A stretch of 64,000 nt of DNA, taken from IMG/VR virus record IMGVR_UViG_2541047759_000001. One strand, 5' to 3'. Below, piece after piece: positions 29,261 through 29,311 of the stretch (its first letter is position 1; each line of letters begins with the position of its first letter). The stretch comes from a virus (lineage: Duplodnaviria; Heunggongvirae; Uroviricota; Caudoviricetes). Under the pieces are notes generated by a model, which worked only from the letters and a program-made list of their open reading frames with translations, was not told the origin of the DNA and made no database searches. A program made the position numbers and the translations under genes.

Positions 29261-29311
29261 TCCGTGAGCGGGGGCGAAATGCCCCCGTGTCTTTTTTCAC
29301 AGGAGGCTGAG

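What the first reader, a model, noticed from the sequence alone, without database searches (positions are those of the whole stretch)
29262..29300. Terminator-like hairpin between major capsid gene and FI
gggggcgaaatgccccc followed by a T-rich run sits in the 50-bp gap after the capsid gene stop. A partial terminator here would lower downstream expression relative to the capsid gene, or could stabilise the capsid mRNA 3' end.
Basis: seen in the sequence. Interest (0 to 1): 0.2.

Follow-up and report, generated by a model that had tools for sequence, protein, structure and literature searches.

The report
Terminator-type hairpin after major capsid gene
A real, evolutionarily maintained RNA hairpin with a U-run sits just after the major capsid gene of this lambda-like prophage. 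It is the local version of a stem-loop already annotated at the same spot in phages N15, HK97 and P22, so it is an ordinary feature whose exact job is still untested.

Summary
Window 29268-29288 (+) forms an 8-9 bp hairpin with 7 G-C pairs (about -17 kcal/mol). It is followed by TCTTTTTT (29290-29297). It lies in the 51-nt non-coding gap between the capsid gene (28232-29260, Pfam Phage_cap_E) and FI (ATG 29312).

It is not chance. A site of this quality occurs 0.12 times per 16 kb in shuffles. All 65 distinct sequences downstream of E-type capsid genes (235 loci) carry a GC-rich hairpin there. These fall into at least 16 unrelated sequence versions, mostly with UNCG or GNRA tetraloops and a sense-strand U-rich tail. 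Within the phage-21 lineage every stem substitution keeps pairing, including one G-C to A-U swap. A sister hairpin follows the decoration gene D (28182-28203). No other gap between Nu1 and I has one.

Public records already annotate the equivalent element: N15 and HK97 as "putative terminator", P22 as a stem-loop "similar in location to phage HK97 and lambda".

The operon lies downstream of a Q antiterminator, so simple termination is probably minor. I favour a 3'-end-forming and 3'-end-protecting hairpin that raises D/E message relative to downstream genes. That role is inferred, not shown.

Known kind, low interest.

The parts
29268..29288 (+). RNA hairpin: GCGGGGGC-GAAAU-GCCCCCGU. It has 8 pairs (7 G-C plus an outer G.U), or 9 pairs with an AAA triloop.
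   Evidence: The stem is 100% paired in 17 distinct relatives, with one compensatory G-C to A-U change.
29290..29297 (+). U-rich tail TCTTTTTT, starting 2 nt after the stem.
   Evidence: Across 16 hairpin versions the sense-strand tail has 4.6 T in 8 nt, against a 21% T background.
28232..29260 (+). Major capsid gene (lambda E / phage 21 gene 7 homologue). Its stop codon lies 7 nt upstream of the hairpin.
   Evidence: Pfam PF03864, E = 2e-66. 88-100% DNA identity to phage 21 and the PhiR12 phages.
29312..29695 (+). FI DNA-packaging gene. Its SD AGGAGG lies at 29301-29306, and the hairpin ends 23 nt before the ATG.
   Evidence: Pfam PF14000. Same extent as the FI CDS annotated in PhiR12_2_star.
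28182..28203 (+). Sister hairpin TCAGGCCACCGCGTTGGCCTGA, followed by CTGATTTCTT, in the gap after decoration gene D (27827-28174).
   Evidence: Equivalent hairpins follow D in lambda, N15, phi80 and most other loci; N15 annotates its copy as a putative terminator.
12511..13332 (+). Q-type antiterminator gene upstream of the late operon (context: the polymerase reaching the hairpin is expected to be Q-modified).
   Evidence: Pfam PF03589 Antiterm, E = 6e-55.
13413..13432 (+). tR'-like intrinsic terminator just downstream of Q (context).
   Evidence: The architecture matches the pR'/tR' scheme described in PMC7547250.

Best explanation
**What it is.** The element is a Rho-independent-terminator-type RNA hairpin on the sense strand of the late operon, immediately after the major capsid ORF. 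It is the phage-21-lineage version of a position-conserved stem-loop that follows the major capsid gene in lambda-like, HK97-like and P22-like phages.

**Proposed mechanism (inferred).**
1. Late transcription starts downstream of Q and is carried out by Q-modified polymerase, which mostly reads through the site.
2. The hairpin folds in the released RNA.
3. A 3' end is created just downstream, either by residual termination at the U-run or by endonucleolytic cleavage in the U-rich single-stranded stretch.
4. The hairpin then blocks 3'-to-5' exonucleases.
5. Together with the sister hairpin after D, this lets the D-E segment outlast or outnumber the FI-to-tail segments. D and E encode the two most abundant virion proteins.
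6. Polymerase not modified by Q would simply terminate here.

**Shown versus inferred.** Shown: the structure, its placement, its conservation and its orientation. Inferred: read-through, 3'-end formation and stabilisation.
For: - **Structure and placement:**
- **Not chance:** 0.12 sites of this quality per 16 kb in shuffles.
- **Positional conservation:** all 65 distinct E-downstream sequences from 235 loci carry a hairpin between the E stop and the FI ATG. 58 of 65 pass a strict test of at least 6 Watson-Crick pairs. The same test gives 0/65 after FI, 0/57 after C/Nu3, and a background of 1.24 per kb.
- **Diversity:** at least 16 unrelated hairpin sequences (19 tabulated variants). 16 of those 19 have four-base loops, most of them UNCG or GNRA on the sense strand.
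- **Stem is universal, tail is not:** 3 of 16 versions have no U-tract. This fits a role that needs the hairpin more than termination.
- **Within-lineage changes:** all stem substitutions keep pairing, including one G-C to A-U swap.
- **Specificity to D and E:** between Nu1 and I, only the gaps after D and E carry such sites.
- **Q upstream:**. Q antitermination of lambdoid late operons is described in PMC7547250.
- **Viable phages carry it:** the PhiR12 phages have this region at 99.6-99.9% identity over 801 bases.
Against: - No transcript data were available, so no 3' end, half-life or read-through value is known for this or any homologous site.
- The U-tail is significantly enriched on the sense side (p = 0.0014). 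This suggests selection for real termination, not only for an exonuclease block.
- From my own recollection (not checked here), Sampson et al. 1988 attributed differences in lambda late-gene expression mainly to translation initiation. That would leave little for mRNA-level control to explain.
- A hairpin 7 nt past the stop codon would often be melted by terminating ribosomes on a heavily translated message.
Confidence: 0.45

Rival explanations
1. Partial terminator (attenuator). A fraction of late-transcribing polymerases really stop at the U-run. Genes downstream of E are then transcribed less than D and E, as with T7 Tphi after gene 10.
For: The stem plus U6 tail is canonical. The sense-oriented U-rich tail is enriched across 16 independent versions. 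[quoted passage not shown] Leaky terminators that balance expression are documented in phages (PMC9163698).
Against: A Q antiterminator lies upstream, and Q-modified polymerase is known to read through intrinsic terminators. Several versions have weak or absent U-tracts: lambda TGTTTCTC, N15 CTTTCTGG, L010 CTGGAGGA, L100 ATTAAACC. An equally good or better terminator after D would cut E transcription, although E and D are needed in about equal amounts.
Confidence: 0.25
2. Insulator against polymerase not modified by Q. The hairpin stops stray transcription in the lysogen, or before Q acts, and is irrelevant once Q-modified polymerase transcribes the operon.
For: The Casjens group lists this as one possible role of intra-late-operon terminators, alongside partial termination, and states that the roles are unknown (PMC8022706). 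The site has intrinsic-terminator features.
Against: An insulator has no reason to sit specifically after the two most abundant virion genes in every lineage while being absent from the other head-tail gaps. Versions without a U-tract would not terminate.
Confidence: 0.15
3. Translational control of FI. In read-through RNA an outer helix (29261-29267 with 29297-29304) extends the hairpin and masks part of the FI Shine-Dalgarno sequence.
For: The minimum-free-energy fold of the gap includes this outer helix.
Against: The outer helix is not conserved. Five of its 7 pairs are broken without compensation in close relatives, against 100% pairing for the inner stem. Other lineages have no equivalent pairing.
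Confidence: 0.05
4. Chance palindrome or neutral junction sequence with no function.
For: The single-sequence fold z-score is modest at -2.4. Terminator-like hits are common in this DNA, with 30 found against 14 expected.
Against: Presence in 65 of 65 distinct sequences and at least 16 unrelated versions, pairing-preserving substitutions, strand-specific tails, and 0.12 expected per 16 kb.
Confidence: 0.03

Closest known systems
Stem-loops annotated after the major capsid gene in N15 (AF064539, 'putative rho-indep. transcription terminator'), HK97 (NC_002167, 'terminator, putative', 5192-5213) and P22 (NC_002371, stem_loop 6102-6119, 'similar in location to stem-loops in phage HK97 and phage lambda')
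   Same: Same position (2-17 nt after the capsid stop, just before the next head gene), same strand, GC-rich 6-9 bp stem, short loop and U-rich tail. N15, like this window, has a second such element after the decoration gene.
   Different: The primary sequence is unrelated. The phage-21 version has a longer G5/C5 stem, a 5-nt loop and one of the better U-runs. The phage 21 record (M81255) and the PhiR12 records do not annotate it.
Phage T7 terminator Tphi, immediately after major capsid gene 10
   Same: A hairpin terminator placed directly after the most highly expressed structural gene (PMC6938266). It works as a leaky terminator that balances expression (PMC9163698).
   Different: Tphi acts on T7 RNA polymerase and has measured activity. 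This element faces host polymerase that is expected to be Q-modified, and its activity is unmeasured.
Intercistronic mRNA-stabilising hairpins (malE-malF REP elements; the Rhodobacter puf operon hairpin). Cited from my own knowledge, not checked here.
   Same: A stable hairpin 3' of the cistron needed in the largest amount within a polycistronic mRNA. This is the mechanism I favour.
   Different: It is not a REP element: it is single-copy in the window, and no Rfam family matches it. Differential decay has not been shown here.
Lambda tR' and the other Q-controlled intrinsic terminators of lambdoid phages
   Same: Same structural class. This window has such a site at 13413-13432, just after Q. 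The scheme is described in PMC7547250.
   Different: tR' is the regulatory target that Q overcomes at the start of the operon. The E-FI hairpin lies 16 kb inside the operon, with no known regulatory switch.

Membership tests
Rho-independent (intrinsic) terminator | GC-rich stem-loop with a short loop | tested here: met
   8-9 pairs with 7 G-C, a loop of 3-5 nt, and -16.8 kcal/mol.
Rho-independent (intrinsic) terminator | U-tract directly 3' of the stem on the transcribed strand | tested here: met
   GUCUUUUUUC gives 6 U in the first 8 nt, with the U6 run starting 4 nt after the stem. The tail is strand-specific: the antisense side has 2 of 8. It is imperfect, because the first three positions are G, U, C.
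Rho-independent (intrinsic) terminator | Lies in non-coding RNA downstream of a stop codon, in the sense orientation | tested here: met
   It sits in a 51-nt gap, with Pfam-supported E and FI on either side and frame-breaking indels in relatives.
Rho-independent (intrinsic) terminator | Produces transcript 3' ends or measurable termination | not testable with these tools
   No transcript data are held. A Term-seq data set for EHEC Sakai is deposited at GEO (the paper prints GSE14363; its dRNA-seq set is GSE143631; PMC7547250), but I could not read it.
Capsid-gene stem-loop of lambdoid and HK97/P22-type phages (as annotated in N15, HK97 and P22) | [quoted passage not shown] | tested here: met
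   Found in 65 of 65 distinct E-downstream sequences. Annotated equivalents appear.
Capsid-gene stem-loop of lambdoid and HK97/P22-type phages (as annotated in N15, HK97 and P22) | The structure is kept while the sequence changes | tested here: met
   At least 16 unrelated stems occupy the same position. Within the lineage there is one compensatory change and four wobble changes, with no broken pair.
Intercistronic mRNA stabiliser hairpin | Stable hairpin 3' of the most highly expressed cistrons of a polycistronic mRNA | tested here: met
   Between Nu1 and I, only D and E are followed by such hairpins.
Intercistronic mRNA stabiliser hairpin | The upstream segment has a longer half-life that depends on the hairpin | not testable with these tools
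   This needs a rifampicin chase with stem mutants.
REP / repeated extragenic palindrome | Member of a dispersed repeat family | tested here: not met
   There is a single copy in the 64-kb window even with 3 mismatches allowed.
Any curated Rfam RNA family | Match to a covariance model | tested here: not met
   27500-30000 gave only two chance-level hits (E = 2.8 and 5.2), and neither lies at the site.

The most novel reading that the evidence does not exclude
The D and E hairpins together form a conserved post-transcriptional 'capsid message cassette'. The late operon is read through by Q-modified polymerase, then cut and trimmed back to these hairpins. This yields long-lived D-E mRNAs. Structural-protein stoichiometry in lambda-like phages (and, by analogy, HK97- and P22-like phages) would then be set partly by segmental mRNA stability, not only by translation initiation.
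Probability: 0.3. Interest if true: 0.35.

Novelty: already known. Interest (0 to 1): 0.15.

Why it matters
The element bears on a small, acknowledged loose end. Terminator-like hairpins inside antiterminated phage late operons are common. The Casjens group writes that 'their roles are not known' (PMC8022706).

The comparative result here makes that question cleanly testable. The hairpin is kept after the capsid gene in every lineage, while its sequence, and sometimes its U-tract, is replaced. A twin follows the decoration gene.

The practical value is modest:
- Correct annotation of the FI start.
- A candidate natural part for tuning expression within operons.

Tried and rejected
- **Raw folding-energy scan.** 32-nt windows across 66 loci did not discriminate. 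GC-rich coding sequence gives many windows at or below -17 kcal/mol, and the E-downstream window was usually only in the top 1-5%. I replaced this with an explicit stem-loop criterion.
- **SD-masking outer helix.** Predicted in the window but not conserved, so rejected as the main function.
- **Repeat or REP element.** Single copy in the window.
- **Known RNA family.** None found.
- **Coding explanation (GTG 29264 ORF).** Rejected because of indels in relatives and the extent of the Pfam match.
- **Literature.** Ten searches found no 3'-end mapping or half-life data for the lambda or phage 21 E-FI site. Liu et al. 2013 (lambda ribosome profiling), Sampson et al. 1988 and the Casjens & Hendrix lambda review are not held. 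The Sakai Term-seq paper has no supplement held as text. Searches returned irrelevant papers.

Full report
**What is in the sequence**

The major capsid gene runs from 28232 to 29260 (342 aa; Pfam Phage_cap_E, E = 2e-66). The FI packaging gene starts at ATG 29312 (Pfam Packaging_FI), with AGGAGG at 29301-29306. This leaves a 51-nt gap.

In that gap, 29268-29275 (GCGGGGGC) pairs with 29281-29288 (GCCCCCGT) around a GAAAT loop. The helix is followed by G-TCTTTTTT-C. The consensus scan ranks it first of 30 terminator-like sites on both strands of 22000-38000, with 9 pairs and 7 G-C pairs.

- The hairpin alone is -16.8 kcal/mol.
- The 61-nt context folds at -22.9 kcal/mol, z = -2.4.
- In 200 dinucleotide shuffles of the 16-kb region, a sense-strand site of this quality appears 0.12 times.
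- The motif is single-copy in the window and matches no Rfam family.

**Context**

The head module is of the phage 21 type. It is 88-89% identical to phage 21 (M81255) and 99.6-99.9% identical over 801 bases to the PhiR12 phages, whose recorded hosts are E. coli C and K-12. The same 501-bp stretch occurs in prophages of 1563 of 5426 complete E. coli genomes.

Upstream lie several late-operon landmarks:
- a Q antiterminator gene at 12511-13332 (Pfam PF03589, E = 6e-55);
- a strong tR'-like terminator at 13413-13432;
- two tRNA genes.

This is the standard lambdoid layout, in which late genes are transcribed from pR' only after Q modifies the polymerase to read through terminators (PMC7547250; PMC2147009).

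**Comparative evidence**

I collected 235 loci that encode E-type capsid proteins at 53-100% identity. They came from phage records, species-representative genomes and IMG/VR. They give 65 distinct sequences downstream of the capsid stop. Every one has a GC-rich hairpin between the stop and the FI start.

A strict test required at least 6 contiguous Watson-Crick pairs, at least 4 G-C pairs, a loop of 3-6 nt, and a start within 40 nt of the stop:

| Gene whose stop is followed | Distinct sequences passing |
|---|---|
| E | 58 of 65 |
| D | 30 of 65 |
| C/Nu3 | 0 of 57 |
| FI | 0 of 65 |
| FII | 8 of 63 |
| Z | 7 of 58 |

The background on that strand is 1.24 per kb. The seven E failures have G.U-containing, bulged or 5-bp versions.

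The hairpins fall into at least 16 sequence versions that cannot be aligned with one another:

| Lineage | Hairpin |
|---|---|
| phage 21 / this window | GCGGGGGC-GAAAT-GCCCCCGT |
| lambda | ATGGCCC-TTCG-GGGCCAT |
| N15 / phi80 | GTGGCCC-ATTC-GGGCCAC |
| Providencia | CGGCGGG-GAAA-CCCGCCG |
| Serratia | AGGGGC-TACG-GCCCCT |
| E. whittamii | AGAGCC-GAAA-GGCTCT |

Sixteen of the 19 tabulated variants have four-base loops, most of them UNCG or GNRA when read on the sense strand. The stem begins between 2 nt before and 17 nt after the end of the stop codon, and ends 11-35 nt before the FI ATG.

The 8 nt after the stem hold 4.6 T on average, against a 21% T background. The 8 nt before it hold 2.6 A (Wilcoxon p = 0.0014). 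The tail is therefore strand-specific. Three of the 16 versions have no U-rich tail.

Within the phage 21 lineage there are 17 distinct gap sequences. The inner helix is paired in 100% of cells. The stem substitutions seen are four wobble-preserving changes and one G-C to A-U double change in an E. coli / Shigella variant.

**The sister element**

The gap after decoration gene D (27827-28174) holds TCAGGCCACCGCGTTGGCCTGA followed by CTGATTTCTT, at 28182-28203. Nearly all loci have a hairpin there too, usually with a better U-run. Lambda, for example, has AAAGGCCGCCTGTGCGGCTTTTTTT.

Between Nu1 (22107) and the end of I (37543), which spans about 20 genes, these are the only two intergenic sense-strand terminator-like hairpins in the window. 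D and E are the two most abundant virion proteins (established lambda biology).

**Already known**

- The N15 record annotates both positional equivalents as 'putative rho-indep. transcription terminator'.
- The HK97 RefSeq record annotates 'terminator, putative' at 5192-5213, right after its unrelated major head gene: GGGCGGG-GAAA-CCCGCCC-TTTT.
- T7 has its single terminator immediately after capsid gene 10 (PMC6938266).
- For P22-like phage L, the Casjens group notes a putative terminator at the end of the procapsid module. [quoted passage not shown]

The window's element is therefore a known kind of feature. The phage 21 and PhiR12 records do not annotate it.

**Mechanism**

Shown:
- a stable sense-strand hairpin with a U-run;
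- selection for the pairing;
- selection for the position after the capsid gene (and after the decoration gene);
- a Q gene upstream.

Inferred:
- Q-modified polymerase mostly reads through. The hairpin folds behind it and marks or protects a 3' end, produced either by residual termination or by cleavage in the U-rich single strand. The D-E message then persists relative to downstream segments.

I prefer this to plain attenuation for three reasons:
- The stem is universal but the U-tract is not.
- A strong terminator after D would work against the roughly equal need for E.
- Q suppresses termination.

The significant U-tail enrichment keeps real partial termination (0.25) and insulation against unmodified polymerase (0.15) as live alternatives. 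These roles are not mutually exclusive.

A predicted outer helix that would mask the FI Shine-Dalgarno sequence is broken without compensation in close relatives. I give it 0.05.

**Verdict**

The feature is real, selected and ordinary. Its identity as a terminator-type hairpin is about 0.9 certain. Its physiological role is untested, here and, as far as the held literature shows, in lambda itself.

Noticed in passing
window 28182-28203 (+): A second terminator-like hairpin lies in the gap after decoration gene D. It is conserved by position across lambda-like head modules, and most relatives have a stronger U-run than the E-FI site does.
   Followed up: yes
L003 (phi80 JX871397) 1652; window 29264: The annotated phi80 FI start (GTG, 9 nt after the capsid stop) lies inside the conserved hairpin, so it is probably about 12 codons too long. 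N15 and the alignment point to the ATG downstream. The window's mechanical ORF from GTG 29264 has the same problem.
   Followed up: partly
window 13413-13726 (+): A strong terminator-like site (AACCCGCCGCCGAGCGGGTT then TTTTATTG) lies 80 nt after the Q gene. It is followed by tRNA-Met (13476-13551) and tRNA-Arg (13652-13726). This is the pR'/tR'/tRNA layout typical of Stx-type lambdoid phages.
   Followed up: partly
window 37749-37778 (+), with minus-strand promoter-like sites at 37676-37649: A 13-bp perfect palindromic hairpin (AAACCCCGGTATC...GATACCGGGGTTT) sits in the 340-nt gap between tail genes I and J, next to an 11-of-12 minus-strand promoter match. It may be a bidirectional terminator or a small inserted unit.
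   Followed up: no
window 41593-41612 and 42345-42374 (+): Two canonical terminators with long T-runs lie directly after J (stop 41574) and after the ORF at 41642-42241. They bracket what looks like a separately terminated accessory gene.
   Followed up: no
L106 (IMG/VR) E-FI gap versus L237 (P22) 6102-6117: The hairpin AGGGGCTGCGGCCCCT after an E-type capsid gene in L106 is identical to the one after the unrelated P22 coat gene. This could be convergence on a short stable tetraloop hairpin or exchange of a junction sequence.
   Followed up: no
window 15221-17197 (+): A 658-aa late-region protein with DUF1737, a SASA sialate-esterase domain and DUF6645. It resembles the esterase genes carried downstream of Q in Stx-type prophages.
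   Followed up: no
window 26285-27790 (+), C-terminal half: The protease/scaffold protein contains three tandem copies of a roughly 40-aa repeat (…EAKGREQLATMLAGQQGMSVEQARAILAA…). They correspond to the 'Tri box' repeats annotated as function unknown in the phage 21 record.
   Followed up: no
L236 (HK97) 3309-3335, 6692-6719, 7443-7462, 8398-8422: The HK97 record annotates further putative terminators inside its late operon, including one right after the major tail subunit. This window has no equivalent hairpin after V (stop 31742).
   Followed up: no
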